DNA of 32,000 bases from Candidatus Saccharimonadota bacterium (GTDB lineage Bacteria > Patescibacteriota > Gracilibacteria > Absconditabacterales > Absconditicoccaceae): NCBI GenBank assembly GCA_000503875.1, contig CP006913.1, forward strand, positions 390,001 through 422,000, given 5' to 3'. Shown piece after piece: positions 1,066-13,777 of the stretch (within the stretch, counting starts at the first letter, position 1; each line of letters opens with the position of its first letter). The notes beneath the pieces were generated by a model. That model worked only from the letters and a program-made list of their open reading frames with translations. It did not search any database and was not told where the DNA came from. Both the position numbers and the translations under genes were made by a program.

Positions 1066-2832
1066 TTATTGTTTCACAATCTTGAAAGTACGAGATTGTG
1101 TTTTGTCCTGTGTTGTTTTTATGATATAAGTTCCAGGACTGAACCCACTCATATCGATACTGTGTTTTTGTTGGCTATACCCCTTATAAAGGAGATTTCC
1201 AATGAGGTTAAATATTTCCACAGTACCATTTTTTTCGAGTTCTATTGTGCAGAGAGAAATTACAGGATTTGGATAGATTGTAATCTTTCCATTTTCTATA
1301 TCTTCTACTCCTGTGACGGTAACTTGTTCGCTATCAGAGTTTTTACAACCATGATTGTCGGTAACCGTAACTGAATAAGTACCAGAAGCACTTACTACAA
1401 TAGTTTGTGTTATTGCAGTCGTAGACCATAGATATTCAGAAAATCCTGTACCTGCATCTAACGTTGCATTTCCATTACCCGAAGTTTGTGTGATATTAAC
1501 CGTAGGTAGAGGATTAACAACAACGACAACTTGATCAGCAATAACACCACAAGAACCGTTAACAGTAGCGGTATAAGTTTTGGTTTCAGAAGGAGTAAAA
1601 GGCACGCCATCTACAACTCCGTTATCCCAACTTAATGTTCCGTTAGTATAAGAAGCGGTTAAGGTAACCTGTCCACCTTGGCAAACAGAAGCATCAGCTC
1701 CAGCATTAACCGTAGGTAGAGGATTAACAACAACGACAACTTGATCAGCAATAACACCACAAGAACCGTTAACAGTAGCGGTATAAGTTTTGGTTTCAGA
1801 AGGAGTAAAAGGCACGCCATCTACAACTCCGTTATCCCAACTTAATGTTCCGTTAGTATAAGAAGCGGTTAAGGTAACCTGTCCACCTTGGCAAACAGAA
1901 GCATCAGCTCCAGCATTAACCGTAGGTAGAGGATTAACAGTAATTACAACTTCATCACTAGCAAAACAATCATCTTTAGCAACACTAACTGAATAAGTAT
2001 CAGCAGAACCTATCTCGATAGTCTGAGTAGTTTGTCCATCAGGCCCCCAAAGATAAGTAGCTCCAATAACTCCAGCATCGAGTATTGTAGTAGAACCTTG
2101 GCAAATTGCTCTATCAGCACCAAGATTAACATTAAAAATTGTCTCTGTAATTACTACAGTACCATTCATCGTAATACTTCCACCAGCATTAGTAGCAACA
2201 CAGGTATAGCTTCCAGCAGAAATCCCAGTCCACTCAAGAGTGGAACCAGTAATACCAGTTTTTGCGCTACCTACATTAGCATTGCTAGCATCTTTTAACT
2301 GATAACTTGCACCAGTCTCAGAATTAGAAAGTAATATAGATTTTCCACCAGTGCCTTGACAATAAGCACCTGAACCAGTAAGATTATAAACAGTAGGTTT
2401 AGGTGGATTTTCCCATAATACAATAAAATTAAGTTCATTATAAGGAGGGACTACAAAATCTCCAACATGGACAGTTTGAAAATACTCTCCTTTGCTATTT
2501 TTTTGATTAATAGCTACTACATTAGTTTTTTGTATAGTTACCTGAAAAGTAAAAAGAGCAATATATTCTCCTTCAAAATCCCATCGATAACTACTAGGGC
2601 ATGATTGATTTGGTGGGCAGAAATCAGTATTGCCTACCTGGAAAATTCCATGGTTAAGTAAATAGTTCATTTTAACAGTATCGCATAATGCAAGATCAGT
2701 AGTTATGTAAAGATCATACGCTTTAGTTACCGTTGACTCGCTATTTACATAGATTGTTTGTTTTTGGGCATTACTATACTTCGTACCCAATATCACAATT
2801 AGCAAAATTAAAAAAAGTTTGAGTGCTTTCAT
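1066..2832 (-). CDS. secreted repeat-rich surface protein with a Bacteroidetes-type T9SS (Por) C-terminal sorting domain
   Basis: Uninterrupted 588-aa ORF (ATG at 2830-2832, TAA at 1066-1068). Signal peptide MKALKLFLILLIVILGTKYSNAQ. Two identical 70-aa Ig-like repeats (VNPLPTVNAGADASVCQGGQVTL...). The C-terminus KITIYPNPVISLCTIELEKNGTVEIFNLIGNLLYKG...PGTYIIKT...FKIVKQ matches the TIGR04183-type sorting-domain pattern as I remember it. By my count there are 56 Gly codons and none is TGA. Confidence 0.85.
   Translation of the reverse strand: MKALKLFLILLIVILGTKYSNAQKQTIYVNSESTVTKAYDLYITTDLALCDTVKMNYLLNHGIFQVGNTDFCPPNQSCPSSYRWDFEGEYIALFTFQVTIQKTNVVAINQKNSKGEYFQTVHVGDFVVPPYNELNFIVLWENPPKPTVYNLTGSGAYCQGTGGKSILLSNSETGASYQLKDASNANVGSAKTGITGSTLEWTGISAGSYTCVATNAGGSITMNGTVVITETIFNVNLGADRAICQGSTTILDAGVIGATYLWGPDGQTTQTIEIGSADTYSVSVAKDDCFASDEVVITVNPLPTVNAGADASVCQGGQVTLTASYTNGTLSWDNGVVDGVPFTPSETKTYTATVNGSCGVIADQVVVVVNPLPTVNAGADASVCQGGQVTLTASYTNGTLSWDNGVVDGVPFTPSETKTYTATVNGSCGVIADQVVVVVNPLPTVNITQTSGNGNATLDAGTGFSEYLWSTTAITQTIVVSASGTYSVTVTDNHGCKNSDSEQVTVTGVEDIENGKITIYPNPVISLCTIELEKNGTVEIFNLIGNLLYKGYSQQKHSIDMSGFSPGTYIIKTTQDKTQSRTFKIVKQ
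1501..1920. repeat. perfect 2 x 210-bp tandem duplication inside the T9SS-CTD gene. The repeat edge recurs at 1921-1940.
   Basis: 1501-1710 and 1711-1920 read identically by eye (cgtaggtagaggattaacaacaacgacaacttgatcagc...). Each encodes one 70-aa repeat. Confidence 0.9.
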
Positions 2833-3021: not shown

Positions 3022-5733
3022 ATGAACAACAAAACAAAATTTCTTAAATTTGGTATTGCAGTACTCTTGGGAGCAGGAGTTGTAGGTGGATTACTCTATG
3101 CCCAACTCAATATCCCTACAGATATTGATAATGCAGTAATGACTATTAAACAAATCAATATTACGTCGGATGGTCAAGCAACTACGCCCAAAATTGTTAT
3201 TGATGGTAGTGCATCAGATGGTAATTTTCTTAAAGTTGAATGAAGTATATTGATGGGAAGTATTACAGGATCTATTGGTCAAATAAATAAAGTATCAGGA
3301 GATAAATCAAGTATTCTTTGAGGAGTGAAAAATACGATAAATGGAGATTATTCGATAATTCCATGATGATCATATAATCAAGTGACAGGAACAGATTCTT
3401 ATGCTTTTGGAAATACAGTAAGAGTTAATGGTAGTCAATCATATGCAATTTGAAAATCTTTAATTTTGAATTGAAATGGTTCTTTTGTCTTTTCAGATGG
3501 AAAGCCATCAAATTTTACCGTTTCTAAAGATTGAGTTTTTATTGTAAAAGTTACTAACGGAGTAGGTATCAATACATGAGTAACAACTACAGGTTATGAC
3601 TTAACCGTTGCAGGTAGTGGTATCGTTTACGGTAACCTCAAAACAAACAATATGATAGCTGGAGCGTATTATTATGGATCAATAACTAGTGAAGATGATC
3701 AATACGAACTCAAATTAAGCCAATGGGAAGGAATAGGAAATATTTATTATAATTCATGATATGTAGGAATTGGAACCAATAATCCTACAGCACAACTCCA
3801 TGTAAATGGAACAACAATATTACAAGGGTTATCAACATCAACACAAACTACAGCTTTGGTTGTAGACGCCAATGGAAATGTAGGTACAAGAGCATTAAAC
3901 ACAGTAGCATTTAACGGATATACAGCGCCAGTAACATCAGTATCAGGAAGAACTGGAGCAGTAGTATTAACAAAAACAGATGTAGGATTGGCAAGCGTAG
4001 ACAATACAGCAGATATGGCTAAACCAGTTTCAACAGCGACACAAACAGCATTGAATCTCAAAGCAAATTTAGCAAATCCAGCCTTGACAGGGATACCAAC
4101 AGCACCAACAGCATCGACATGAACAAGTACAACTCAAATAGCAACAACAGAATTTGTAAAATTACAATGATATTTGACTACTGCTACAGCACCAGTAACA
4201 TCAGTAGCAGGAAAAGCTGGAGTAGTACTATTAACAAAGGCAGATGTAGGATTGGCAAATGTAGACAATACAGCAGATATGGCTAAACCAGTTTCAACAG
4301 CGACACAAACAGCATTGAATCTAAAAGCAAATCTAGCAAGTCCAGATTTGACAGGAATACCAACAGCACCAACAGCATCAATAGCAACAAACACAAATCA
4401 ACTAGCAACAACAAAATTTGTAAAAGATCAATGATATTTGACTATTGCTACAGAAGCAGATCCACAAGTGGGAACATTGACAAGTGGAAGATGGTGTACA
4501 ACAGATGGAACAACAGTAAATTGTGCAACAGTAGCACCAGTAACTACAGAAAGTGATCCACAAGTAGGAACACTAACTTCTGGTAAAATGTGTACAACAA
4601 ATGGAACAACGGTAAATTGTACGACAGATATTCCAGTAACTCCGACAAATTATGTAACAACAGATACAAATCAACCAGTAGCATGAATTAAAACATTTAG
4701 CAATAATACTATTTTCAACGGAAATGTAGGAATTTGAACAACAAGTCCTCAAAGTAAACTTCATATATTTGCACCATCACCAGTTCTTACATTAGAAGGA
4801 ACTGTTGATGATACCACAAAAATCAATTTTATTGATGATTGATCAGTTGTATGAGAACTTTCTGTTGATCGTAGTAGTGGTTTAACAAAACTTTGGACAA
4901 CAGAGCCTCTTTCTTTTTGATCAGCTAATGCGGAAAAAATGCGTATTTTACAAAATGGAAATGTAGGAATTTGAACAGCAAGTCCAGCAACAAAACTTCA
5001 TGTATATTGAGTAGATGGTTCATTCCCAGCTCGTATATCAAGTCCAGCTGGTTATATAGATATTGGACCATCAAATGCTTCGTGGGCACACATTTATACT
5101 GATAGACCAAATTTTATTTTTAATGCATGAGTCTACATTATAGGAGGAAAATTAAGTACATATGATACAGCTAGTCTACAATTACAAACAAATGGAACAA
5201 CAAGAATCTTCGCTGATAATACCAATGGTAATGTAGGAATTTGAACAACAACACCAGCAGCAAAACTTCATGTGGCATGATCAATTTGAGCTACTTCTTG
5301 GATTGGTGCGTGATGTGAGTGAGCTTGTGAATCATGAGGAGGATATTCTCTTTTGTACGCAGATGGAACAATTGTAGCAACAAGTTCAGTAACAGCAGCA
5401 GCATTCTACTATTCATCAGACATCACTCTCAAAAAAGATCTTACAAAAATTACAAATCCATTGGAAAAAATCATAGCATTAAATGGATATAATTTTACAT
5501 GGAAATCAAATGATAAAAAAGATATTTGAGTGGTTGCACAAGAAGTAGAAAAAGTATTTCCAGAAGCTGTTAAAGCAGATGCCAAAGGATTAAAATCAGT
5601 TGAATATGGAAACTTAGTTGCTCCAATTATCGAAGCAATCAAAGAATTATATACCAAATACCTAGATCAACAAACACAAATTTCCGAGCTAGAACAAAGA
5701 ATTGAAATATTAGAAAAGAATATAATTAAATAA
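3022..5733 (+). CDS. tail-fibre-like surface fibre protein (903 aa) with an N-terminal membrane anchor or signal and a C-terminal intramolecular-chaperone (peptidase S74-like) domain
   Basis: Single frame from ATG 3022 (alternative TTG 3004) to TAA 5731-5733, with dozens of in-frame TGA and no TAA/TAG; checked codon by codon. N-terminus MNNKTKFLKFGIAVLLGAGVVGGLLYA. Repeated NVGIGT(T/A)SP..KLH(V/I) motifs. Two 88-aa repeats contain GxxGAVVLTKxDVGLxxVDNTADMAKPVSTATQTALNLKA...TGIPTAPTA...TNQ(I/L)ATTxFV, a classic phage tail-fibre repeat. Confidence 0.85.
3922..4449. repeat. 2 x 264-bp tandem repeat encoding the tail-fibre repeat module
   Basis: 3922-4185 versus 4186-4449 are near-identical over long stretches (gatgtaggattggcaa..gtagacaatacagcagatatggctaaaccagtttcaacagcgacacaaacagcattgaatct). 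Confidence 0.85.
5413..5730 (+). other. peptidase S74-like intramolecular chaperone / autocleavage domain of the fibre protein
   Basis: SSDITLKKDLTKITNPLEKIIALNGYNFTWKSNDKKDIGVVAQEVEKVFPEAVKADAKGLKSVEYGNLVAPIIEAIKEL followed by a coiled-coil tail. This matches the S-D-x-x-x-K ... G(F/V)xAQEVxxVxPExV ... YxxLxxxxIxAIKEL pattern of endosialidase/tail-fibre chaperone domains. The predicted cleavage Ser-Asp is at 5416-5421. Confidence 0.8.
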
Positions 5734-5814: not shown

Positions 5815-8800
5815 ATGGGAAAGCTCAAAAAAACATGAATTATACTTGCTATATTTTGTATATCACAGATAATTTTTTCCGGTTTTGCTTTTGTATCTCC
5901 GATGTTAGTTATCAATAATACAGGGAATAATGCAAAAATACTTCCTATGAGAAAATGATGTCAACAGATAATCAATAATTGTGCTTATCCGATAGGAATA
6001 CTTATGTATCCTTCTTCAGCAACAAAATCATTTTTTGAAAACAAACCATCATGTGTAGTGTTGAGTGAGTGTGTAAAGACTATAAAATGTCCTGGTACAC
6101 TTCCTACAAATACAGAATGGAATACAAGTAGTAATTATGTACAAACATTTGATGGATTTAAATGGGTACCAACAAAAACTGCACATTATGATGCTACACC
6201 AGCATCAGATGATTGTAGATATGATTGTAAAACCAATTATTCATGGAACGGAACTAGTTGTATAGCGGATACAAGAACATATACATGTGCTGCAAAACCA
6301 ATAGGAACAGTGCGAAATACAGTAGGTAATTATTTACAAACATGGAATGGTACAACTCGAACACCATTAGATAGTACAACAAGTTATAGTACAACAGTAA
6401 GTACAAATTCTTGTAAATATAAATGTGATGTTTGATATAGATGGGATACTACAACTTCAAGTTGTATAAATACCTGTGCATTGCCATGGTGATGATGAAC
6501 AAAAACACATTGAGAAACAATAACAGCATATGATAAAACAAGTGGAACATGTACAACAAATAATTGTGCATCCGAAACACGTACATGTAATGGAGCGCTC
6601 TGAACATTTGATTGAACATATCAATATGCAAGTTGTACTCAAAACGCAAACACCCAAAGCTGTGTAATAGCAAACGGAGTAGGAACTCAATCATGTACAG
6701 CATGATCAACAAGTCGATGAACTTGTAATGTAGTAAGTTGTAACGCAGGATACCGTGCATCATGAAATACATGTGTAAATACATGCGCATTACCATGGTG
6801 AGGAACAATTACAAATGGACAATCAGTAACAGCATATGATAAAACGAGTGGAACATGTACAACAAATAATTGTGCATCAGAAACACGTACATGCAATGGA
6901 ACACTTTGAACATTAAATGGAACATATCAATATGCAAGTTGTACTCCAAACGCAAACACCCAAAGCTGTATAATAGCAAACGGAGTAGGAACTCAATCAT
7001 GTACAGCATGATCAACAAGTCGATGAACTTGTACTTTAGTAAGTTGTAACGCAGGATATCGTCCATTATGAAATACATGTATAAATACCTGTACATTACC
7101 ATGGTGATGAACAATTACAGATGGGCAACCAGTAACAGCATACGATAAAACAAGCGGAACATGTCCAACAAATAATTGTGCATCACAAATTCGTGTTTGT
7201 AACGGAACACTTTGAACATTAAATGGAACATATACGTATCAAAATTGTACAGCAAATGCAAATACGCAAAGCTGTACTGTTTCTAATGGTTGAGGAAATC
7301 AATCATGTGCAATATGATCAACAAGTCGATGATCATGTATAGTAAACCGATGTACTACAGATTATTATGATGATGGTTGAGCTAATGATTGTGTACATGT
7401 AGGAAATTGATATTATTCTAATAGTACATCAACAACAAGAACAGCATGTACAAATTATCCAGATACAGCAAGTCGTAATTATACATATACAAGTGCAGGA
7501 AATGGAACGAATAGTTGTACAGCAACATATACAGAATTATGTTGATTGGATTTATACGAGAATCCAATTGGAGTGTGTAGTGCAGTAGGAAACTGATATT
7601 TTTCACCAATAAACAATAATAGTAGAACATTATGTACAAATTATCCAGATACAGCAAGTCGTGATTATACATATACGAGTGATGGAAATGGAGCAAATAG
7701 TTGTACAGCAACATATACAGAACTATGTTGATTAGATTTATATGAAACATCAAATTGAGTGTGTAGTGCAGTAGGAAACTGATATTTTTCACCAATAAAT
7801 AATAATAGTAGAACATTATGTACAAACTATCCAGATACAGCAAGCCGTGATTATACATATACGAGTGATGGAAATGGAGCAAATAGTTGTACAGCAACAT
7901 ATACAGAACTATGTTGAGTAGATTTATATGAAACATCAAATTGAGTGTGTAGTGCAGTAGGAAACTGATATTTTTCACCAGCGAATAATAATAACAGAAC
8001 ATCATGTACAAATAAACCATCATACTCAACATATACAACTGATGGAAATGGAACAAATACTTGTTCACGAACTTGTGATACATGATATCACACAGAAGAT
8101 GGTGTTACTTGTATTTCAAATACGAAAACAACAAGTTGTACTGGGAAACCATTAGGAACGACATATTATACTGCAACAGATATAACACAAACATGGAATA
8201 CTAGCTTAAGTGCATGGCTTCCAAGTGCTGTAGCAACATACAGTACAACAGCAAGTACAACAGAATGTAGATACACCTGTGCAGCTTGATATCTTCGAAA
8301 TGGATCTTCATGTGTAGCGTGATGTAAAACTAATAGTGATTGTAGTTTATGAAAAATATGCCAATGATATGTAGCCCCTACTCGAAAATGTTTAGGAACT
8401 CAATTAAATAATTGATCTTGTAGTCAAGAGCCACTCCCATGATTTTGTGATAGTGAAGATTCTCCTTGTAGTACATATGATACATATTATGATTGTCAGG
8501 ATACGGATCGTTGTCATCTAGGAAAGCCTGGTATATGTAACCGAAATTGAACCTCTTGTATATGAATTACTAGTCAAACTACATGTAGTGCGACAGCATG
8601 ATGTTCAGTAAGTAATACATCATCAGAAGTATTTTGAACCTGTGTAACACCTACTCCTGTCTGTGGAAATGATATTGTAGAGATAGGGGAAACATGTGAT
8701 TGAGGAAGTCAATCATGTAGTATTGGAGGTGTAGCAGGAACTCAATTATGTAATAATACATGTAGTTGATATGGTACTTGTTTAGTAAGTCCATGTATAG

Positions 8801-9933
8801 CAAGTTATAATACAGATGTATGTTGATGATGTAAATGAAGTTGGACTATGTCAAGTTGTGATAATCGTGAATGTACTCCTGATGGTCTTGAAGATGCAAT
8901 ATGGAATTGTTCTTATGCTTGAATAACAAAACAATGTTATTCAGTATTAGGAGATCCATGTAATACATCAACATGTTTTACCTCTGGTACTCAAGTAAAA
9001 ACAGCAGATGGAATAAGTAAAAATATTGAAAATATTCAAATAGGAGACGAATTATTAGGTCAAGACGATCAAATAAATACTGTTATTGCATATGACCGTC
9101 CAAATCTTGGAGAAAGAAAACTTTATAGCATAAATAATGGACCATATTTTGTGACTCATGAACATCCATTTATGACTATATGATGATGGAAATCTATAAG
9201 TCCAGAAGCAACTCGAAGAGAAATGCCTAACTTTGAAATATTACCACTCAAAGTGGGAGATATTCTTATAAAAGAAAATAATGAAATTGAGTACATATGG
9301 AGTATCCAATCAACGACAGCAGATCCAGAAATACCATTATACAACTTTAAATTAGACGGAAATAATACTTATTATGCAAACGGATATTTAGTACACAATA
9401 AATTATATGATTGAGATGGTTGTACATTAAGTTCTCAATGTGCATGTGGATCTTGTGTTGGTTGAGTATGTTGTCCTACAGGAGGAGGCTGATGTTTCAA
9501 AGAATGAACACAAGTACGTTTACCAGATGGAACAACAACAGCTATAGAAAATATTCAAACAGGAAATATTGTATTATGATCAGAAAATACTCAAAACACA
9601 GTTCTCAAATTATTTAAAATCTGGAATAATAATTGGGATCTTTATGCAATAAATAATTCTGATTATTTTGTTACTGATACACATCCATTTATGACAACAG
9701 AAGGATGGAAATCATTGAATCCAGTATGATCTAGCAAAGAAAATCCAGGTATGATATTCTGACAACTTGAAATTGGTGATATACTTATAACAGAACAAGG
9801 AACAACTATTATATACTCATTAGAAAAAACAGCATATGCATGATATGTATATAATTTTAGATTAGATGGAAATAAAACATATTACGCAGATTGATATCTA
9901 GTACATAATGTAGAGATAAAATCTGTTGAATAA
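5815..9933 (+). CDS. giant secreted cysteine-rich repeat protein (1372 aa) ending in two tandem Hint (bacterial intein-like) domains
   Basis: One frame from ATG 5815 to TAA 9931-9933 with TGA = Gly; I walked the whole frame and found no TAA/TAG. N-terminal hydrophobic segment GIILAIFCISQIIFSGFAFV. Three ~102-aa repeats (CxLPWGG.I..G..V.AYDKTSGTC.TNNCAS..R.CNG.LG...). Four 62-aa repeats (VGNGYFSP.NNN.RT.CTNYPDTASR.YTYTS.GNG.NSCTATYTELCG.DLYE). One CGNDIVEIGETCD motif resembles the myxococcal Cys-rich repeat. Two Hint domains follow. Confidence 0.85.
6475..7395. repeat. 3 x ~306-309-bp coding tandem repeat (Cys-rich CxLPWGG module)
   Basis: Unit starts at 6475, 6784 and 7090 (tgtgcattgccatggtga / tgcgcattaccatggtga / tgtacattaccatggtga), with long near-identical stretches. 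Confidence 0.85.
7399..8142. repeat. 4 x 186-bp coding tandem repeat (VGNGYF...CTNYPDTASR module)
   Basis: Unit starts gtaggaaa(t/c)tgatat at 7399, 7585, 7771 and 7957. Copies 2 and 3 are almost identical. Confidence 0.85.
8974..9399 (+). other. Hint domain 1 (bacterial intein-like, 142 aa)
   Basis: Starts CFTSGTQVKTADG (block A Cys1), contains VTHEHPFMT (block B TxxH) and ends YYANGYLVHN (block G HN). The next residue is Lys, not Cys/Ser/Thr. Confidence 0.8.
9493..9909 (+). other. Hint domain 2 (139 aa), 31 aa downstream of Hint 1 in the same protein
   Basis: CFKEGTQVRLPDG ... VTDTHPFMT ... YYADGYLVHN, followed by only VEIKSVE and the stop. Confidence 0.8.
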
Positions 9934-9961: not shown

Positions 9962-11167
9962 ATGAAACAGAAAATGACTTTCAAAAATCTAGAAAAAAAT
10001 ATATTTGTTGTTGGGATATTGTTTTTTTGAATAATAGGTGTCATTTTTGCTATAAATACTCAGAATGAATGATGGAGAATTACTAAAAGTGGTAGCTCAG
10101 CAACAGTTAATGTCCATAATGAATGTCGCGTTGTTACAAATAACCGTACAGATAATGATATTTTTGTACCAACAAGTTCAAGCGCAGAATGGCTATCTTT
10201 TAGAAATAATTTACCAACTAATGTTATTTTAGCTGAATGTGCAACTTGTTGATCTGCAAATTGATGAAGTTTTTCTCATCTTTTACCAACTGCTTCAACA
10301 CTTTGTCCCTCAGGAGTGACAGCAACTAATTTTCAATATCACGAGGGAATGATGGCAAAAGCCACTATATTTGGTGCAGTATATGCTGATTATATTGATG
10401 GTTATCGAGATTGGAATTGTGGTATATCTTATTGTTTTGCAAGTCATACGGTTGCCGGAGATCCTCCGACAAGTTATACATGTTCAGAGTCAGATTCAGC
10501 TTGTAGTTTATATTTTTCTGATACATGTTATAATACAAATACCATATGAGCAACCATCTGTGGTGTCGGAAATCATAAGGCAACATGTACCAGTGCATGA
10601 TGGGATGATGGGGGATGGTGTAGTGCGACATGTTTTGTAGAAAACACTCCTGTATTAATAATGGATGGATCTCATAAAAATATACAAGATGTTATTATTG
10701 GTGATATATTATTAGGTAAAGATAACACACCAAATAAGGTTATTGATTATTATCGTCCTATATTATGAGCAAGAAAATTGTACAGTATAAATAATGGTTT
10801 ATATTTTGTAACTCCAGAGCATCCATTTATGACGCTATGATGATGGAAATCTATAAATCCAGAAGCAACTCAAAGAGAAATGCCTAATTTCGAAATACTA
10901 CCCCTTAAAGTAGGTGATATATTGGTTAAAGAAAATGGAGAATCAGAATATATACGAACAATGTCATCAATATCAGTAGATCCAGAAACTCAATTATATA
11001 ATTTTAAATTAGATGGAAATAATACTTATTATGCAAATGGATACTTAGTACATAATAAATCACAGTGTCTCACTAATTCCGATTGTTCATCTGTTGGAGT
11101 TGGTTCTTGTTGTAATAACGGAACTTGTACAATACTTGTCAATTGAGTACGACCGACATGTAATTAA
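9962..11167 (+). CDS. secreted cysteine-rich protein (401 aa) with a Hint domain and a 36-aa Cys-rich C-terminal tail
   Basis: ATG 9962 to TAA 11165-11167, one frame with TGA = Gly. N-terminal TM/signal NIFVVGILFFGIIGVIFAI. Motif DIFVPTSSSAEWLSFRNNLP. Hint domain. Tail KSQCLTNSDCSSVGVGSCCNNGTCTILVNGVRPTCN. Confidence 0.85.
10631..11056 (+). other. Hint domain 3 (142 aa)
   Basis: CFVENTPVLIMDG ... VTPEHPFMT ... YYANGYLVHN. About 80% identical to Hint 1 at DNA level by eye (for example EMPNFEILPLKVGDIL is shared). Confidence 0.8.
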
Positions 11168-11575
11168 ATAAGTATCAATAAGAAAAGTGATTTTATATTT
11201 TATAAAACCATGAAGAAAAGTATACTGATTATAATTATATTGGTAGTTTTTTCATGAGTTGGTTTATTATTAGCAGCAAACCAATGATATTTTTGATATT
11301 GAGTGTCAAATACATTATCGGTAGCAAAATTAAATCAATCAGCAGGTTCAGCTGGAGCCGTATCTACATCAGTTTCCAAAGTAGAAGAGCATGGTATATG
11401 TAAAACAATAACTTCTACCAACACTAAACTTCTTTTTGTTCCTACAAAAACTGCAACAGAACGATCAACTTTTATAACAAAAAAACCAAATCATATAATA
11501 CTTGGTTCATGTGGATGTACAACGAATTCTGATTGTAGTGTTTGAAGTATATGTTCATGATATGTTGCTGGGGCA
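11166..11575. repeat. copy A of a ~410-bp duplicated module (upstream region plus first ~120 codons)
   Basis: aaataagtatcaataagaaaag... through ...tgttcatgatatgttgctgg matches 12150-12560 with scattered substitutions. Confidence 0.8.
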
Positions 11576-12052
11576 TGATATTGTGATGGAGAATTTGTAT
11601 ACAATAGTCCTGCATATTGTCAGAACGATTGTCGTGATGGACCTACTTGTGATCCTTGTACTGGAGTGACAAATCAGTGGGATTGCGAATCACAAACTCA
11701 GTGAGATCCTTGATATGAGTTTCAAGCTTGTTCTCGAATACCTGAGCAACCATGATGAACAGCTTATTGTGGTCAAGAATTTAGAACCCAAAGTGAATGT
11801 AATACTGCTCCTTCTGAATGTACTTGGGTAAATTGAACAGCAACACCATGAACGTGTGTTGCTCCAGTTGCTGTTTGTTGAAATGGTATAATTGAAGGTA
11901 CAGAACAGTGTGATGAACCAGCAAATATGTGAGATATGACTTCTTGTTCACGGACAGAAAATCTTCAACAGAAATGTAGCTCATGTCATTGTCAAACAAC
12001 CTGTCAGTCATATATAGATCCTAATGCTTGAAGAGTAGTTTGTTCAATGTAG
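11210..12052 (+). CDS. secreted cysteine-rich protein (280 aa), a Hint-less member of the family
   Basis: ATG 11210 to TAG 12050-12052 with 16 in-frame TGA (hand count). Signal/TM SILIIIILVVFSGVGLLLAA. Conserved ICKTITSTNTKLLFVPTKTATERSTF, CGCTTNSDCSVGSICSGYVAG and CGNGIIEGTEQCD motifs. Confidence 0.8.
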
Positions 12053-12149: not shown

Positions 12150-12560
12150 AAATAAGTATCAATAAAAAAGGTAATTTTATATGTAATTAAATTATGAAAA
12201 AAAACTTATTAGCCATAATACTATTGATAATTTTTTCATGAGTCGGTTTATTGCTAGCAGCAAATCAATGATATTTTTGATATTGAGTATCAAGTACATT
12301 ATCGATAGCAAAATTAAATCAATCAGCAGGTTCAGCCGCAGCAATATCTACTACAATCCCAAAAATAGAAGAGCATGGTATATGTAAAACAATAACTTCT
12401 ACTGACACTAAACTTCTTTTTGTTCCTACAAAAACGGCAACAGAACGATCAACTTTTATCACAAACAAGCCAAGTCATATAACGCTTGGTACCTGTGGAT
12501 GTACAACAAATGCTGATTGTACTGTAGGACAAATTTGTTCATGATATGTTGCTGGAGCAA
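12150..12560. repeat. copy B of the ~410-bp duplicated module
   Basis: See copy A. The junction motif tttttttcttgattg(t/c)aaaa also recurs after both terminators (12127-12148 and 13821-13842). Confidence 0.8.
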
Positions 12561-13777
12561 ATTCTTGTCAAGGATCTTATGAATCAACATCTTTTTGGTG
12601 TGTATGAAAATCAATTCCTGATAGTTCTCCTCCATACGTTTGTATGAAGTCAGGTGAACCTTATCAATTAGTTCCAGCAGATTGATGTCCATCAGGTCGA
12701 AGTTTATGATTTATTCAATGATGATCTATTCTGTCTGTATCAGAAACTCTATGTCAGATTATAGACCAAACTGATTTTCAATTACCTAATTGTGAGTATA
12801 AATGTAATACATATACAACATCATCTACTTGTAATGCTAATTCATCATATTGTGATTGGGTATCAAGAAATAACTCATTATCTTGTTCTTCATTTAACCA
12901 AACAACATGTCAATCAACAAATGGTTGTGATTGGGTACCTTGAACACCAGTAACATTAGGAACTTGTACAACTCAAATATGTGGTAATGATATTAAAGAA
13001 TGAACAGAATTGTGTGATGGTTATGATCTTCAAATACCGTGTACTACGACTTTATGAAAAGTTTGAACAAAATACTGTAATAGTACCTGTAATTGATATA
13101 CTACTTGTGTAGCAGATCCAACACCACCATCATGATCAACTTGTGTCCCTAAAAATTGTTTTATAGCTGATACAAAAATTAAACTAGCTGACGGTAGCAC
13201 AAAGCCAATTCAAGAAATAACAACAAAAGATATCGTATATAGTGTATCATGAAAAAAGAATAAAGTAATATGAACATCAAAAAGATTGGATACGACACCA
13301 CTTTATGCATTTAACAATAGTAATCATTATTTTGTAACAGAGGCACATCCGTTTCTTACATTAGATGGATGGAAATCACTAAATCCAGACGCAACAAATC
13401 AAGAAAATCCATGATTGATGGTAACTAAATTATCTATATGAGATATATTAATCACAGAAAAATGAACTACCACATTATTTGCTATCGATTCTATCCCAAA
13501 CAAACAAGGAACATATGTATACAATATTACTGTAGAAAACACCCATGATTATTATGCTGATTGATATGCTGTTCATAATAAATTACAATGTTTAGATATT
13601 GGCTTATATCCATGTGATGGTTGAATGTATTGTGCTGATAATGCATCTCAATGTGAACAATGTCCTGTTGGACTATGTGATCCATGTACTAGTACTTCTC
13701 AATGTCCTGTAGATAGTTATTGTCATTCTATAAATAAAATGTGTCGACCGAGTAGCTGACCAGTTTGTGCATTATAA
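12194..13777 (+). CDS. secreted cysteine-rich protein (527 aa) with a Hint domain and a 65-aa Cys-rich C-terminal tail
   Basis: ATG 12194 to TAA 13775-13777, one frame with TGA = Gly. The first ~120 aa are near-identical to the 11210 gene. Contains a CGNDIKEGTELCD motif, a Hint domain and the tail KLQCLDIGLYPCDGGMYCADNASQCEQCPVGLCDPCTSTSQCPVDSYCHSINKMCRPSSGPVCAL. Confidence 0.85.
13157..13579 (+). other. Hint domain 4 (141 aa)
   Basis: CFIADTKIKLADG ... VTEAHPFLT ... YYADGYAVHN, followed by Lys. Confidence 0.8.

What the first reader, a model, noticed from the sequence alone, without database searches (positions are those of the whole stretch)
11057..11167. Short knottin-like Cys-rich tails immediately after the Hint HN motif: possible self-released mini-protein cargo
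After Hint3 the protein continues for 36 aa: KSQCLTNSDCSSVGVGSCCNNGTCTILVNGVRPTCN (6 Cys). After Hint4 (13580-13774) it continues for 65 aa with 11 Cys: KLQCLDIGLYPCDGGMYCADNASQCEQCPVGLCDPCTSTSQCPVDSYCHSINKMCRPSSGPVCAL.

Both begin K-x-Q-C-L directly after VHN, so C-terminal Hint cleavage would liberate them precisely. Their size and Cys spacing are reminiscent of defensin or knottin-type peptides. The shared junction with divergent tails is the pattern expected for exchangeable cargo.
Basis: inference. Interest (0 to 1): 0.72.

Follow-up and report, generated by a model that had tools for sequence, protein, structure and literature searches.

The report
Cys-rich tails after self-cleaving Hint domains
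Two secreted proteins of an SR1 (Absconditabacteria) bacterium end in small cysteine-rich segments right after a self-processing Hint domain; these tails are real and modular, but cysteine counts suggest they stay attached to the rest of the protein and are not shed as free antimicrobial peptides.

Summary
The window comes from candidate division SR1 bacterium RAAC1_SR1_1. Tail 3 (36 aa, 6 Cys) and tail 4 (65 aa, 11 Cys) directly follow the His-Asn ends of two of the four Hint domains in the window.

The Hints belong to a large, uncurated bacterial-intein-like subfamily (at least 1,155 clusters at 50% identity). Cys1, T-x-x-H and H-N are intact, there is no +1 nucleophile, and Lys follows HN at +1 in 90% of ends.

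What follows HN is modular: nothing but K, low-complexity sequence, another Hint, large domains or, only in CPR bacteria in the genome sample, Cys-rich mini-domains with recurrent frameworks. This supports exchangeability and refutes a structural-cap role.

Free antimicrobial cargo is poorly supported. The tails match no knottin, defensin or toxin family, are acidic to neutral, and have no immunity gene downstream. In 78 of 81 relatives the Cys counts of the N-flank and the tail share parity. Odd/odd cases include the window's Hint4 protein (25+11), which implies a disulfide bridging across the Hint.

The closest solved structure, Tetrahymena BIL2, ligates through a Lys isopeptide. The most likely reading is that the Hint excises itself and leaves the tail attached. 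This is a new variant of a known kind.

The parts
5815..9933 (+). Gene B: 1372-aa secreted, repeat-rich, 7% Cys protein carrying Hint1 and Hint2
   Evidence: Code-25 ORF with ATG start, TAA stop and a hydrophobic N-terminus. Pfam Hint-family hits on its C-terminal part.
8974..9399 (+). Hint1 (Cys1 ... V-H-N)
   Evidence: It is 66% identical in protein sequence to Hint3.
9400..9492 (+). 31-aa, 6-Cys linker after Hint1 (KLYDGDGCTLSSQCACGSCVGGVCCPTGGGG) that runs straight into Cys1 of Hint2
   Evidence: It shares the C-x-x-S-S-Q-C-x-x-G-x-C motif with the pre-Hint modules and with tail 4.
9493..9909 (+). Hint2, followed by the 7-aa tail VEIKSVE (9910-9930) and a TAA stop
   Evidence: It has K at +4 where most family members have K at +1.
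9962..11167 (+). Gene C, identical to AHB41182.1: 401-aa secreted protein made of a signal peptide, a 12-Cys N-flank, Hint3 and tail 3
   Evidence: Exact identity to P0105. Source name. Cys counts.
10631..11056 (+). Hint3 (aa 224-365), a BIL-like autoprocessing domain with Cys224, T284-x-x-H287 and H364-N365
   Evidence: Invariant and near-invariant columns. AlphaFold2 pLDDT 88-98. Foldseek best match is Tetrahymena BIL2 6y75 (E = 5e-11, TM 0.79), followed by the C. thermocellum BIL 2lwy.
11057..11164 (+). Tail 3, the finding: KSQCLTNSDCSSVGVGSCCNNGTCTILVNGVRPTCN. K+1 is at 11057-11059, C+4 at 11066-11068, and the TGA(Gly) codon at 11144-11146.
   Evidence: Folded alone by AlphaFold2 it gives mean pLDDT 77.5, with helix 7-12 and a hairpin at 17-26. 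It has no PDB fold match and no Pfam match. The same framework follows a Hint in P0019.
11210..12052 (+). Gene D, identical to AHB41183.1: 280-aa, 24-Cys secreted paralog of gene E's N-flank, with no Hint and no tail
12194..13777 (+). Gene E, identical to AHB41184.1: 527-aa secreted protein made of a signal peptide, a 25-Cys N-flank, Hint4 and tail 4
13157..13579 (+). Hint4 (aa 322-462). The nearest upstream Cys lies 5 residues before Cys1.
13580..13774 (+). Tail 4: 65 aa, 11 Cys, net charge -3, with K+1 and C+4. TGA(Gly) codons are at 13622 and 13757.
   Evidence: The odd Cys count is matched by an odd count in the N-flank.

Best explanation
The two tails are the C-terminal flanks of a distinct 'H-N-K' subtype of bacterial intein-like (BIL/Hint) autoprocessing domain. 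The domain is embedded in secreted, disulfide-rich surface proteins of an SR1 (Absconditabacteria) bacterium.

Shown here:
- The Hints have an intact catalytic set: Cys1, T-x-x-H and terminal H-N.
- Cys1 is their only cysteine.
- There is no +1 nucleophile, and a Lys directly after HN is nearly universal.
- What follows the Lys is a freely swapped module. In CPR bacteria it is often a small Cys-rich domain.
- The Cys counts of the N-flank and the tail are parity-coupled.

Inferred mechanism:
1. After Sec export the flanks oxidise into one disulfide network. In the odd/odd class, which includes the Hint4 protein, a junction-proximal Cys (5 to 13 residues before Cys1) pairs with a tail Cys, probably C+4. 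This staples the two flanks across the Hint termini.
2. Cys1 stays free and forms the N-terminal thioester, and the terminal Asn cyclises.
3. The Hint thereby excises itself like a self-removing connecting peptide (compare proinsulin).
4. The tail stays joined to the N-flank by the disulfide staple. Possibly it is also joined by an amide formed when the amine of Lys+1 attacks the thioester, as reported for the closest solved relative, Tetrahymena BIL2.

On this reading the tails are parts of the mature Cys-rich ectodomain, which is probably adhesive or structural. They are not free peptides.
For: Identity and chemistry:
- Pfam and NCBIfam Hint or intein hits.
- Invariant catalytic columns.
- High-confidence Hint model, closest to BIL2 6y75/6tmm and to BIL 2lwy.
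- BIL domains lack a +1 nucleophile, sit in hypervariable regions of secreted proteins, and cleave at the N- and C-termini or ligate without a nucleophilic side chain (PMC7664689, PMC7765530, PMC5874633).
- BIL2 forms a K(epsilon-NH2)-C-terminus isopeptide (PMC8616854).

Family survey:
- 210 genomic and more than 459 metagenomic loci.
- 1,155 clusters at E <= 1e-30.
- K at +1 in 328 of 363 ends and within +1..+4 in 349 of 363, against a 3.3% background. It is retained in 1-2-aa tails.

Tail staying attached:
- N-flank and tail Cys parity agree in 78 of 81 proteins (Fisher p = 7e-19). In the non-redundant set the split is 36 even/even, 24 odd/odd and 3 mismatched (p = 5e-14).
- The Hint holds only Cys1 in 80 of 81 proteins.
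- The odd/odd class has a Cys 5 to 13 residues before Cys1 in 29 of 31 cases.
- Tails without Cys go with an even N-flank count in 9 of 10 proteins.
- Minimal tails KLAC*, KGAKHCT* and KSKKCN* have one Cys, matched by odd N-flank counts of 3, 41 and 43.
- The same Cys motif is used on both sides of the Hints.

Secretion: N-terminal hydrophobic signal sequences, and the neighbouring genes are also secreted proteins.
Against: No biochemical evidence exists for this subfamily. Cleavage, splicing and isopeptide formation are inferred from conserved residues and from other BIL types.

Parity shows that the flanks' Cys are jointly paired. It does not show which Cys pair, and I could not inspect model coordinates.

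The Hint3 protein is even/even (12+6), so nothing forces a bridge there and tail 3 could be released free. Tail 3 alone is predicted to fold autonomously (pLDDT 77.5), and its Cys spacing fits the knottin consensus.

In family members whose whole tail is one Lys, ligating that Lys has no obvious purpose. The Lys may therefore serve catalysis and not ligation.

Sequences in the parity test are phylogenetically related, although about 15 distinct odd/odd and about 20 distinct even/even count combinations occur.
Confidence: 0.5

Rival explanations
1. C-terminal Asn cyclisation liberates the tails as free knottin- or defensin-like mini-proteins that act on other cells, with the tail position serving as an exchangeable cargo slot.
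For: The scissile bond lies exactly at HN|K and the catalytic residues are intact. Tails are not needed for the Hint fold. Cys-rich tails with conserved frameworks recur in CPR relatives. Tail 3 has an even Cys count and knottin-compatible spacing, which is rare elsewhere in these proteins. Its stand-alone fold is predicted with moderate confidence. A-type BILs are reported to be prone to C-terminal cleavage (PMC5874633).
Against: Parity coupling and the single-Cys minimal tails imply that many tails, including tail 4 with 11 Cys, are disulfide-bonded to the N-flank. There is no family or fold match to knottins, defensins or WAP. Net charges are +1 and -3, the family median is -2, and only 3% of tails reach +2 or more. 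The same motif occurs upstream of the Hints. The K of the 'shared junction' is conserved with any tail, or with none. DNA similarity breaks on both sides of the Hint.
Confidence: 0.15
2. Hedgehog-like use of the Hint. The purpose is N-terminal thioester formation, which releases the large N-flank or transfers it to an external nucleophile such as a cell-wall or host-surface amine. The Hint plus tail is then a by-product, or the tail is a Cys-rich binding or anchoring handle that positions the precursor.
For: Many relatives end with HN-K and nothing else, so the family works without a tail. BIL2 can donate its N-flank to lysines of other proteins (PMC8616854). Cys1 is the only unpaired Cys. The proteins sit among other surface proteins of an episymbiotic lineage.
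Against: This does not explain the strict conservation of the terminal H-N and of the following Lys. It also does not explain the parity coupling or the junction-proximal staple Cys, which tie the tail to the N-flank and not to the Hint.
Confidence: 0.2
3. A polymorphic-toxin system in which a pretoxin Hint releases a C-terminal toxin, paired with an immunity gene.
For: Weak Pfam PT-HINT similarity. Variable C-termini lie behind a conserved junction.
Against: The tails are 36 and 65 aa and match no toxin family. The downstream genes in the window (gene D, and a NAGPA-family protein) and in 25 or more CPR relatives are signal-peptide proteins, often paralogous, and not immunity-like. The PT-HINT score is below Pfam's threshold for both tail-bearing proteins.
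Confidence: 0.05
4. The Hints are catalytically dead structural spacers, and the tails are ordinary C-terminal Cys-rich repeats of a surface protein.
For: The Cys-rich modules on both sides are of the same kind.
Against: Cys1, T-x-x-H, H-N and the following Lys are conserved across more than 1,000 clusters and several phyla. No second Cys is ever recruited into the Hint, although the flanks are 7-17% Cys.
Confidence: 0.07

Closest known systems
Tetrahymena thermophila BUBL-locus BIL2 domain (PDB 6Y75, 6TMM)
   Same: It is the best match to Hint3 both by sequence (E = 2e-4) and by fold (E = 5e-11, TM 0.79, 27% identity). It is a roughly 140-aa mini-Hint with Cys1 and a terminal H-N and no +1 Cys/Ser/Thr. 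It lies between independently folded flanks and is reported to join its N-flank to a lysine epsilon-amine (PMC8616854). The window's family has a near-invariant Lys right after HN.
   Different: BIL2 is eukaryotic and cytoplasmic and is flanked by ubiquitin-like domains. The window's Hints are in secreted, disulfide-rich bacterial proteins. Isopeptide formation has not been tested for this family.
A-type bacterial intein-like domains / Pfam PT-HINT (for example Clostridium thermocellum BIL, PDB 2LWY)
   Same: The terminal His-Asn, the absence of a C'-flanking nucleophile, the location in hypervariable parts of secreted non-conserved proteins, and the expected N- and C-terminal autocleavage with occasional ligation (PMC7765530, PMC7664689). 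The fold match has TM 0.79.
   Different: The PT-HINT score is below Pfam's gathering threshold for the Hint3 and Hint4 proteins (16.8 and 17.2 against 27.7 bits). No NCBIfam model covers the family. The conserved +1 Lys, the Cys-rich tails and the cross-Hint Cys parity did not appear in the papers I could read.
C-type BIL domains of Bdellovibrio (Dori-Bachash et al. 2009, cited in PMC2797640)
   Same: The family found here includes several Bdellovibrionales and Micavibrio loci in which the Hint lies at the very C-terminus. It may therefore overlap with this type.
   Different: The paper is not held in the library, so the defining motifs could not be compared.
Pretoxin-Hint polymorphic toxins (CdiA, MafB, Rhs-type)
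   Same: A Hint lies just upstream of a variable C-terminal module.
   Different: There is no recognisable toxin domain, no immunity gene, and the tails are far shorter.
Knottins, defensins and the WAP four-disulfide core
   Same: Small size and high Cys content. Tail 3's spacing (5, 7, 0, 4, 10) fits the generic knottin consensus. A related tail in P0019 has a sub-threshold WAP hit (E = 0.021).
   Different: Tails 3 and 4 have no family hit above threshold, and the tail 3 model has no fold match. The tails are not cationic. Tail 4 has an odd number of Cys.
Proinsulin-type two-chain maturation (analogy only)
   Same: A connecting segment is removed from a disulfide-stapled precursor, leaving the two flanks joined by S-S bonds.
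   Different: Here the connecting segment would remove itself autocatalytically. There is no homology.

Membership tests
Hint (Hedgehog/intein) superfamily | N-terminal nucleophile (block A Cys/Ser) | tested here: met
   Cys224 of the Hint3 protein lies in a near-invariant column. All four window Hints start with C-F.
Hint (Hedgehog/intein) superfamily | Block B T-x-x-H motif | tested here: met
   T284 is near-invariant and H287 is invariant across 75 sequences.
Hint (Hedgehog/intein) superfamily | Horseshoe Hint fold | tested here: met
   AlphaFold2 pLDDT 88-98 over aa 223-365. 58 PDB Hint or intein matches at E <= 0.001.
Hint (Hedgehog/intein) superfamily | Profile score above a curated threshold | tested here: met
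   Hom_end_hint scores 34.3 bits against a 32.1 cut-off for the Hint3 protein. TIGR01443 intein_Cterm scores 17.6 against 15.6 for the Hint4 protein.
Canonical intein | +1 Cys/Ser/Thr nucleophile on the C-extein | tested here: not met
   +1 is Lys in Hint1, Hint3 and Hint4 and Val in Hint2. It is K in 328 of 363 family ends.
Canonical intein | Insertion in a conserved site of a conserved (often replication or repair) protein | tested here: not met
   The flanks are non-conserved secreted Cys-rich sequence. Flank DNA identity between paralogous contexts is at background level, 35-38%.
Bacterial intein-like domain, A-type / PT-HINT | C-terminal His-Asn with no C'-flanking nucleophile | tested here: met
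   H364 and N365 are near-invariant and are followed by K.
Bacterial intein-like domain, A-type / PT-HINT | Location in variable regions of secreted, non-conserved bacterial proteins | tested here: met
   Signal-peptide-like N-termini and hypervariable flanks.
Bacterial intein-like domain, A-type / PT-HINT | Match to the PT-HINT profile (PF07591) above the gathering score | tested here: not met
   16.8 and 17.2 bits against 27.7 for the two tail-bearing proteins. Only the two-Hint fragment of gene B reaches 29.9 bits.
Bacterial intein-like domain, A-type / PT-HINT | Autocatalytic N- and/or C-terminal cleavage | not testable with these tools
   This requires expression and mass spectrometry.
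BUBL-type BIL (lysine isopeptide ligation) | Closest structural and sequence relative | tested here: met
   6y75 and 6tmm are the top hits by phmmer and by Foldseek.
BUBL-type BIL (lysine isopeptide ligation) | Acceptor lysine positioned at the splice junction | tested here: inconclusive
   K lies within +1..+4 in 96% of family ends. Whether it acts as a nucleophile is unknown.
BUBL-type BIL (lysine isopeptide ligation) | Ubiquitin-like flanking domains | tested here: not met
   The flanks are Cys-rich secreted sequence with no Pfam ubiquitin hit.
Polymorphic toxin system | Recognisable C-terminal toxin domain | tested here: not met
   No Pfam hit for tail 3. Tail 4 has only E > 0.5 noise.
Polymorphic toxin system | Cognate immunity gene immediately downstream | tested here: not met
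   The downstream genes are the secreted paralog D and a secreted NAGPA-family protein. In CPR relatives the downstream genes carry signal peptides.
Knottin (inhibitor cystine knot) | Six Cys with spacing CX3-7CX3-8CX0-7CX1-4CX4-13C (consensus taken from general knowledge) | tested here: met
   Tail 3 has spacing 5, 7, 0, 4, 10. The first six Cys of tail 4 have spacing 7, 5, 6, 2, 4.
Knottin (inhibitor cystine knot) | I-IV, II-V, III-VI knotted connectivity and knottin fold | tested here: inconclusive
   The stand-alone AlphaFold2 model has pLDDT 77.5 but no PDB fold match. Connectivity could not be read out.
Defensin-type antimicrobial peptide | Cationic, amphipathic small disulfide peptide matching a defensin family | tested here: not met
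   Net charges are +1 and -3, the family median is -2, and there is no Pfam match.
WAP four-disulfide core | Eight Cys in the WAP pattern and a match to PF00095 | tested here: not met
   Tail 3 has six Cys and no hit. Only the related P0019 tail gives E = 0.021, at 15.5 bits against a 20.8-bit cut-off.

The most novel reading that the evidence does not exclude
The 'H-N-K' Hints form a widespread, undescribed BIL class that works as a self-excising connecting domain. The two flanks are first stapled by a disulfide across the Hint termini. The epsilon- or alpha-amine of the conserved Lys+1 then captures the Cys1 thioester, and Asn cyclisation removes the Hint. The product is a branched or two-chain Cys-rich surface protein. 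In CPR episymbionts and predators this would be a protease-free, ATP-free way of assembling or diversifying host-contact proteins outside the cell. The same thioester might also be able to attach the N-flank covalently to amines on the host surface.
Probability: 0.25. Interest if true: 0.8.

Novelty: new variant of a known kind. Interest (0 to 1): 0.55.

Why it matters
Absconditabacteria and other CPR bacteria depend on physical contact with host cells, yet their surface proteins are largely uncharacterised. This work defines a large uncurated Hint subfamily of more than 1,000 clusters at 50% identity. It is found in CPR, predatory and other bacteria. Its signature is simple: H-N-K, Cys1 as the only Cys in the domain, and parity-coupled Cys-rich flanks.

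If the Hint excises itself from a disulfide-stapled precursor, or ligates through Lys+1, that would be a new extracellular maturation route. It would also be a bacterial counterpart of the Tetrahymena BIL2 isopeptide chemistry, and a possible source of protein-ligation tools that work under oxidising conditions.

There is also a practical annotation point. These genes are currently labelled 'F-box associated region protein' and 'Intein/homing endonuclease', and neither name describes them.

Tried and rejected
- **Table-11 translation.** Rejected, because the tails are interrupted by TGA.
- **Remote tools with code-25 translations.** This was solved once P0105, the exact database copy of the Hint3 protein, turned up. 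The ENA 'variants' of the window proteins are the same sequences translated with code 4, so they give no natural variation for a selection analysis.
- **Search for closer relatives.** The metagenome scan gave nothing above about 53% identity. The nearest relative is L001 at 62%, and it has a different 8-Cys tail. The specific tails therefore have no orthologues to compare, except the tail-3-like framework in P0019.
- **Family scans of the tails.** Pfam on the tails and NCBIfam on the whole proteins returned nothing above threshold.
- **Full-length AlphaFold2 model.** It left the N-flank below pLDDT 50 and the tail at about 62, so it was uninformative about tail packing. The tool returns no coordinates, so predicted disulfides could not be read.
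- **Foldseek on the 36-aa tail model.** One meaningless hit at E = 9.5.
- **Aligning the Hint-less paralog D with protein E.** This was meant to identify the 'extra' Cys in E's N-flank, but the middle regions are too divergent.
- **tRNA scan.** No tRNA genes in the window.
- **Literature.** The Dori-Bachash 2009 paper on C-type BILs is not held. Searches for Hint domains in CPR, SR1 or Gracilibacteria found no description.
- **Structural-cap idea.** Rejected, because many relatives have only 1-2 residues after HN.
- **Polymorphic-toxin idea.** Rejected on the downstream gene content.
Full report
**1. Observation**

Translated with the standard bacterial table, both tails are broken by TGA, and the window has few long ORFs. 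Reading TGA as sense raises the total of stop-to-stop ORFs of 150 aa or more from 3,073 to 12,757 residues. TGA codons fall on positions that are Gly in standard-code homologues, for example 'LGGWKS' in Hint3. The genetic code is therefore code 25.

- Tail 3 is nt 11057-11164, 36 aa, 6 Cys.
- Tail 4 is nt 13580-13774, 65 aa, 11 Cys.
- Each directly follows V-H-N, begins K-x-Q-C-L and ends at a TAA stop.

The Hint3 protein is identical to AHB41182.1, gene D to AHB41183.1 and the Hint4 protein to AHB41184.1, all from candidate division SR1 bacterium RAAC1_SR1_1. The surrounding genes are chromosomal housekeeping genes: NusA, GltX, GyrB, RpoD, RuvA and LepA.

**2. Anatomy**

The window has exactly four Hint ends, at nt 9399, 9909, 11056 and 13579. 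All lie in a run of + strand genes for signal-peptide proteins:

| Gene | Length | Content |
|---|---|---|
| A | 903 aa | Fibre-like protein ending in a Peptidase_S74 chaperone domain |
| B | 1372 aa | 99 Cys; Hint1, a 31-aa 6-Cys linker, Hint2, then VEIKSVE |
| C | 401 aa | Hint3 plus tail 3 |
| D | 280 aa | Hint-less paralog of gene E's N-flank |
| E | 527 aa | Hint4 plus tail 4 |
| F | 352 aa | NAGPA-family protein |

. Each Hint is about 140 aa with no endonuclease insert.

**3. The Hint family**

Pfam places the domains in the Hint clan: Hom_end_hint, Vint, Hint, Hint_2 and PT-HINT. Only some scores exceed the thresholds, and no NCBIfam model covers the family.

Alignments show invariant or near-invariant Cys1, T-x-x-H, G-W-K-S and L-V-H-N-K. 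An AlphaFold2 model of AHB41182.1 has pLDDT 88-98 over the Hint. Its best PDB matches are the BIL2 domain of the Tetrahymena BUBL locus (E = 5e-11, TM 0.79, 27% identity) and the C. thermocellum BIL. BIL2 is also the best match by sequence.

The subfamily is large and widespread:
- 210 loci among GTDB species genomes, covering CPR lineages, Bacteroidota, Alphaproteobacteria, Bdellovibrionales and Micavibrio, Chloroflexota, Planctomycetota, Omnitrophota and a few archaea.
- More than 459 metagenomic loci.
- 1,155 clusters at 50% identity at E <= 1e-30, many with 2-7 Hints per protein.

**4. What follows H-N in relatives**

Across 363 partly redundant Hint ends, +1 is Lys in 328. A Lys lies within +1..+4 in 349 (96%), against a 3.3% background further down the tails. 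The Lys is retained even when the whole tail is K, IK, VK, NK or EK.

Beyond it, the sequence is modular. Among 138 genomic and metagenomic ends:

| What follows the HN end | Count |
|---|---|
| Cys-rich tail of 26-200 aa | 36 |
| 1-2 residues | 33 |
| Another Hint within a short linker | 17 |
| 3-25 aa | 16 |
| More than 200 aa | 15 |
| Gly/Ser/Asp/Glu low-complexity sequence | 7 |
| Other | 7 |
| Runs off the contig | 7 |

The many 1-2-residue tails rule out the idea that the tails are caps needed by the Hint fold.

In the titled genome set, all Cys-rich tails come from CPR or unclassified MAGs. There the tails are 7-13% Cys while the N-flanks are 1-3% Cys. They fall into recurrent frameworks: 63 aa with 8 Cys, 80 aa with 8 Cys, about 80 aa with 6 Cys ending in CGNSxP, and 100-150 aa with 13-17 Cys. 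Cys at +4 is present in 77 of 95 Cys-rich tails.

The window's own tails have no orthologues. One two-Hint relative, P0019, ends 'HN-LKCVPACNSNSDCGTGNLCCNNACVDNVNYCP', which is the same C-x5-C-x5/7-CC-x3/4-C framework as tail 3.

**5. Are the tails a special cargo class?**

Several results say no.
- (a) The motif C-x-[TL]-[NS]-[SA]-[DQ]-C-x2-4-G-x-x-C occurs in tail 3, in the Hint1-Hint2 linker and in tail 4. It also occurs upstream of the Hints, at the start of the Cys-rich parts of genes B, D and E.
- (b) DNA similarity between the Hint1 and Hint3 regions starts at the Cys1 codon and stops at the H-N-K codons. Identity is 35% in the N-flank, 61-81% in the Hint (with blocks of 93-97%) and 38% in the tail. 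The Hint is the repeated unit, and both flanks differ.
- (c) No tail matches a Pfam family above threshold. The best is a WAP hit at E = 0.021 for P0019, and tail 3 has no hit.
- (d) Tail 3 folded alone gives a moderately confident helix-plus-hairpin model (pLDDT 77.5) with no PDB fold match.
- (e) Net charges are +1 (tail 3) and -3 (tail 4). The 95 Cys-rich family tails have a median of -2, only 3% reach +2 or more, and they are rich in Gly, Ser, Thr and Pro.
- (f) Genes downstream of Hint-plus-tail genes are further signal-peptide proteins, often paralogous, and not immunity-like. This holds both in the window and in CPR relatives.

Among family tails 4.2% of windows fit.

**6. Cysteine parity**

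I took 81 single-Hint proteins with a signal-peptide-like N-terminus and at least 4 Cys in the tail. The Cys count of the mature N-flank and that of the tail have the same parity in 78: 47 even/even, 31 odd/odd and 3 mismatched (Fisher p = 7e-19). The Hint contains only Cys1 in 80 of 81.

After removing tails that share 4-mers, the counts are 36, 24 and 3 (p = 5e-14). Family members with Cys-free tails have an even N-flank count in 9 of 10 cases.

The simplest reading is that all flank Cys are disulfide-paired and Cys1 is the only free thiol. In odd/odd proteins at least one disulfide must then bridge the N-flank and the tail.

The odd/odd class has a Cys 5 to 13 residues before Cys1 in 29 of 31 cases. 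In the even/even class the nearest Cys is usually more than 14 residues away.

Natural minimal tails agree with this:
- 'KLAC*' (P0006, P0050, L096) adds one Cys, at +4, to a mature N-flank of three Cys. One of those three lies 7 or 10 residues before Cys1.
- 'KGAKHCT*' (a Planctomycetales locus) goes with 41 N-flank Cys.
- 'KSKKCN*' (an Omnitrophota locus) goes with 43 N-flank Cys.

The window's Hint4 protein is odd/odd: 25+11 Cys, with a Cys 5 residues before Cys1 and another at +4. The Hint3 protein is even/even: 12+6 Cys, with a Cys 4 residues before Cys1 and another at +4.

**7. Mechanism**

Established for other BIL domains:
- They lack the +1 nucleophile and sit in hypervariable regions of secreted proteins.
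- They yield mainly N- and C-terminal cleavage products.
- They can ligate flanks without a nucleophilic side chain (PMC7664689, PMC7765530, PMC5874633).
- BIL2, the closest solved relative, links its N-flank to a lysine epsilon-amine (PMC8616854, citing Chiarini et al. 2021).

Combining this with sections 3 to 6, I infer the following sequence:
1. The precursor is exported and the flanks oxidise.
2. In odd/odd proteins the flanks become stapled across the Hint termini.
3. Cys1 forms the thioester and the terminal Asn cyclises.
4. The Hint leaves.
5. The tail remains attached to the N-flank by the staple. Possibly it is also attached by an amide made by the amine of Lys+1.

All of these steps are inference. 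None has been shown for this family.

For tail 4, free release by cleavage alone is unlikely. For tail 3 it remains possible.

**8. Comparison and novelty**

The general principle is known: a BIL or Hint domain sits at a hypervariable junction of secreted proteins and self-cleaves. The following did not appear in the literature I could search:
- the H-N-K subfamily as such;
- its prevalence in CPR and predatory bacteria;
- the CPR-specific Cys-rich tail classes;
- the Cys-parity coupling that points to a disulfide staple across the Hint.

I therefore rate this a new variant of a known kind. The C-type BILs of Bdellovibrio may overlap with this family, but that paper was not available.

**9. 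Verdict**

The modular tails, the scissile junction and the conserved Cys frameworks are all real. 'Self-released knottin- or defensin-like cargo' is not the best reading. The better-supported reading is that the tails are disulfide-integrated C-flank modules of surface proteins matured by Hint self-excision. Interest is 0.55.

Noticed in passing
window 1066-2832 (-): A 588-aa secreted protein with a Bacteroidota-type T9SS type-A sorting domain (TIGR04183, 47 bits against a 23-bit cut-off). It has no in-frame TGA codon, unlike its neighbours, and about 38% GC against 29-34% nearby. It may have been acquired horizontally from a Bacteroidota genome into this SR1 genome.
   Followed up: partly
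window 3022-5733 (+): A 903-aa fibre-like secreted protein ending in a Peptidase_S74 intramolecular-chaperone (self-cleaving) domain, directly upstream of the Hint genes. Two different autoprocessing domain types therefore sit in one surface-protein cluster. Some family members (L112, L114, L142, P0122) carry tails after the Hint that look like S74-type chaperones. This was not checked.
   Followed up: partly
window 11210-12052 (+) compared with 12194-13777 (+): Gene D is a Hint-less paralog of gene E. The first 125 or so residues are about 90% identical, the middle regions then diverge, and both proteins end in ...V-C-x-x. This may be a natural with-Hint and without-Hint pair for experiments.
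   Followed up: partly
L002, L004, L005, L082 (Mucilaginibacter, Olivibacter, Negadavirga and a metagenome contig): Bacteroidota relatives carry 2-5 tandem Hints separated only by KGGGS or KGS linkers, inside giant proteins that continue for more than 1,200 aa after the last Hint. The purpose of such arrays is unexplained.
   Followed up: no
P0006, P0050, L096; L058; L068: Minimal tails 'KLAC*', 'KGAKHCT*' and 'KSKKCN*' keep only the Lys and one Cys after HN. Their single Cys is matched by an odd Cys count in the N-flank.
   Followed up: yes
L009-L027, L083-L101 (downstream of the Hint genes); N-termini of P0068, P0094, P0103, P0113: Genes next to Hint-plus-tail genes in CPR genomes encode further signal-peptide proteins. 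Many share an N-terminal motif, A-x-W-x-x-P...P-x-N...Q-x-K-G, which also opens several Hint proteins. This looks like an uncharacterised CPR surface-protein family.
   Followed up: no
window 9962-11167 and 12194-13777: The public names 'F-box associated region protein' (AHB41182.1) and 'Intein/homing endonuclease' (AHB41184.1) are not supported. There is no F-box hit and no endonuclease domain. Both are secreted Cys-rich proteins with a mini-Hint.
   Followed up: yes
window 10100-10250, 11380-11500, 12370-12490 (N-flanks of genes C, D and E): The three proteins share a stretch of about 45 aa, C...(L/I)FVPT...E...F...P...L..C, ahead of their Cys-rich parts. It has no Pfam or NCBIfam match.
   Followed up: no
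window 6400-8300 (gene B): Gene B contains three roughly 100-aa repeats (CALPWGG...TAYDKTSGTC...) and three roughly 60-aa repeats (YTYTSDGNGANSCTATYTELCG...). None matches a Pfam family.
   Followed up: no
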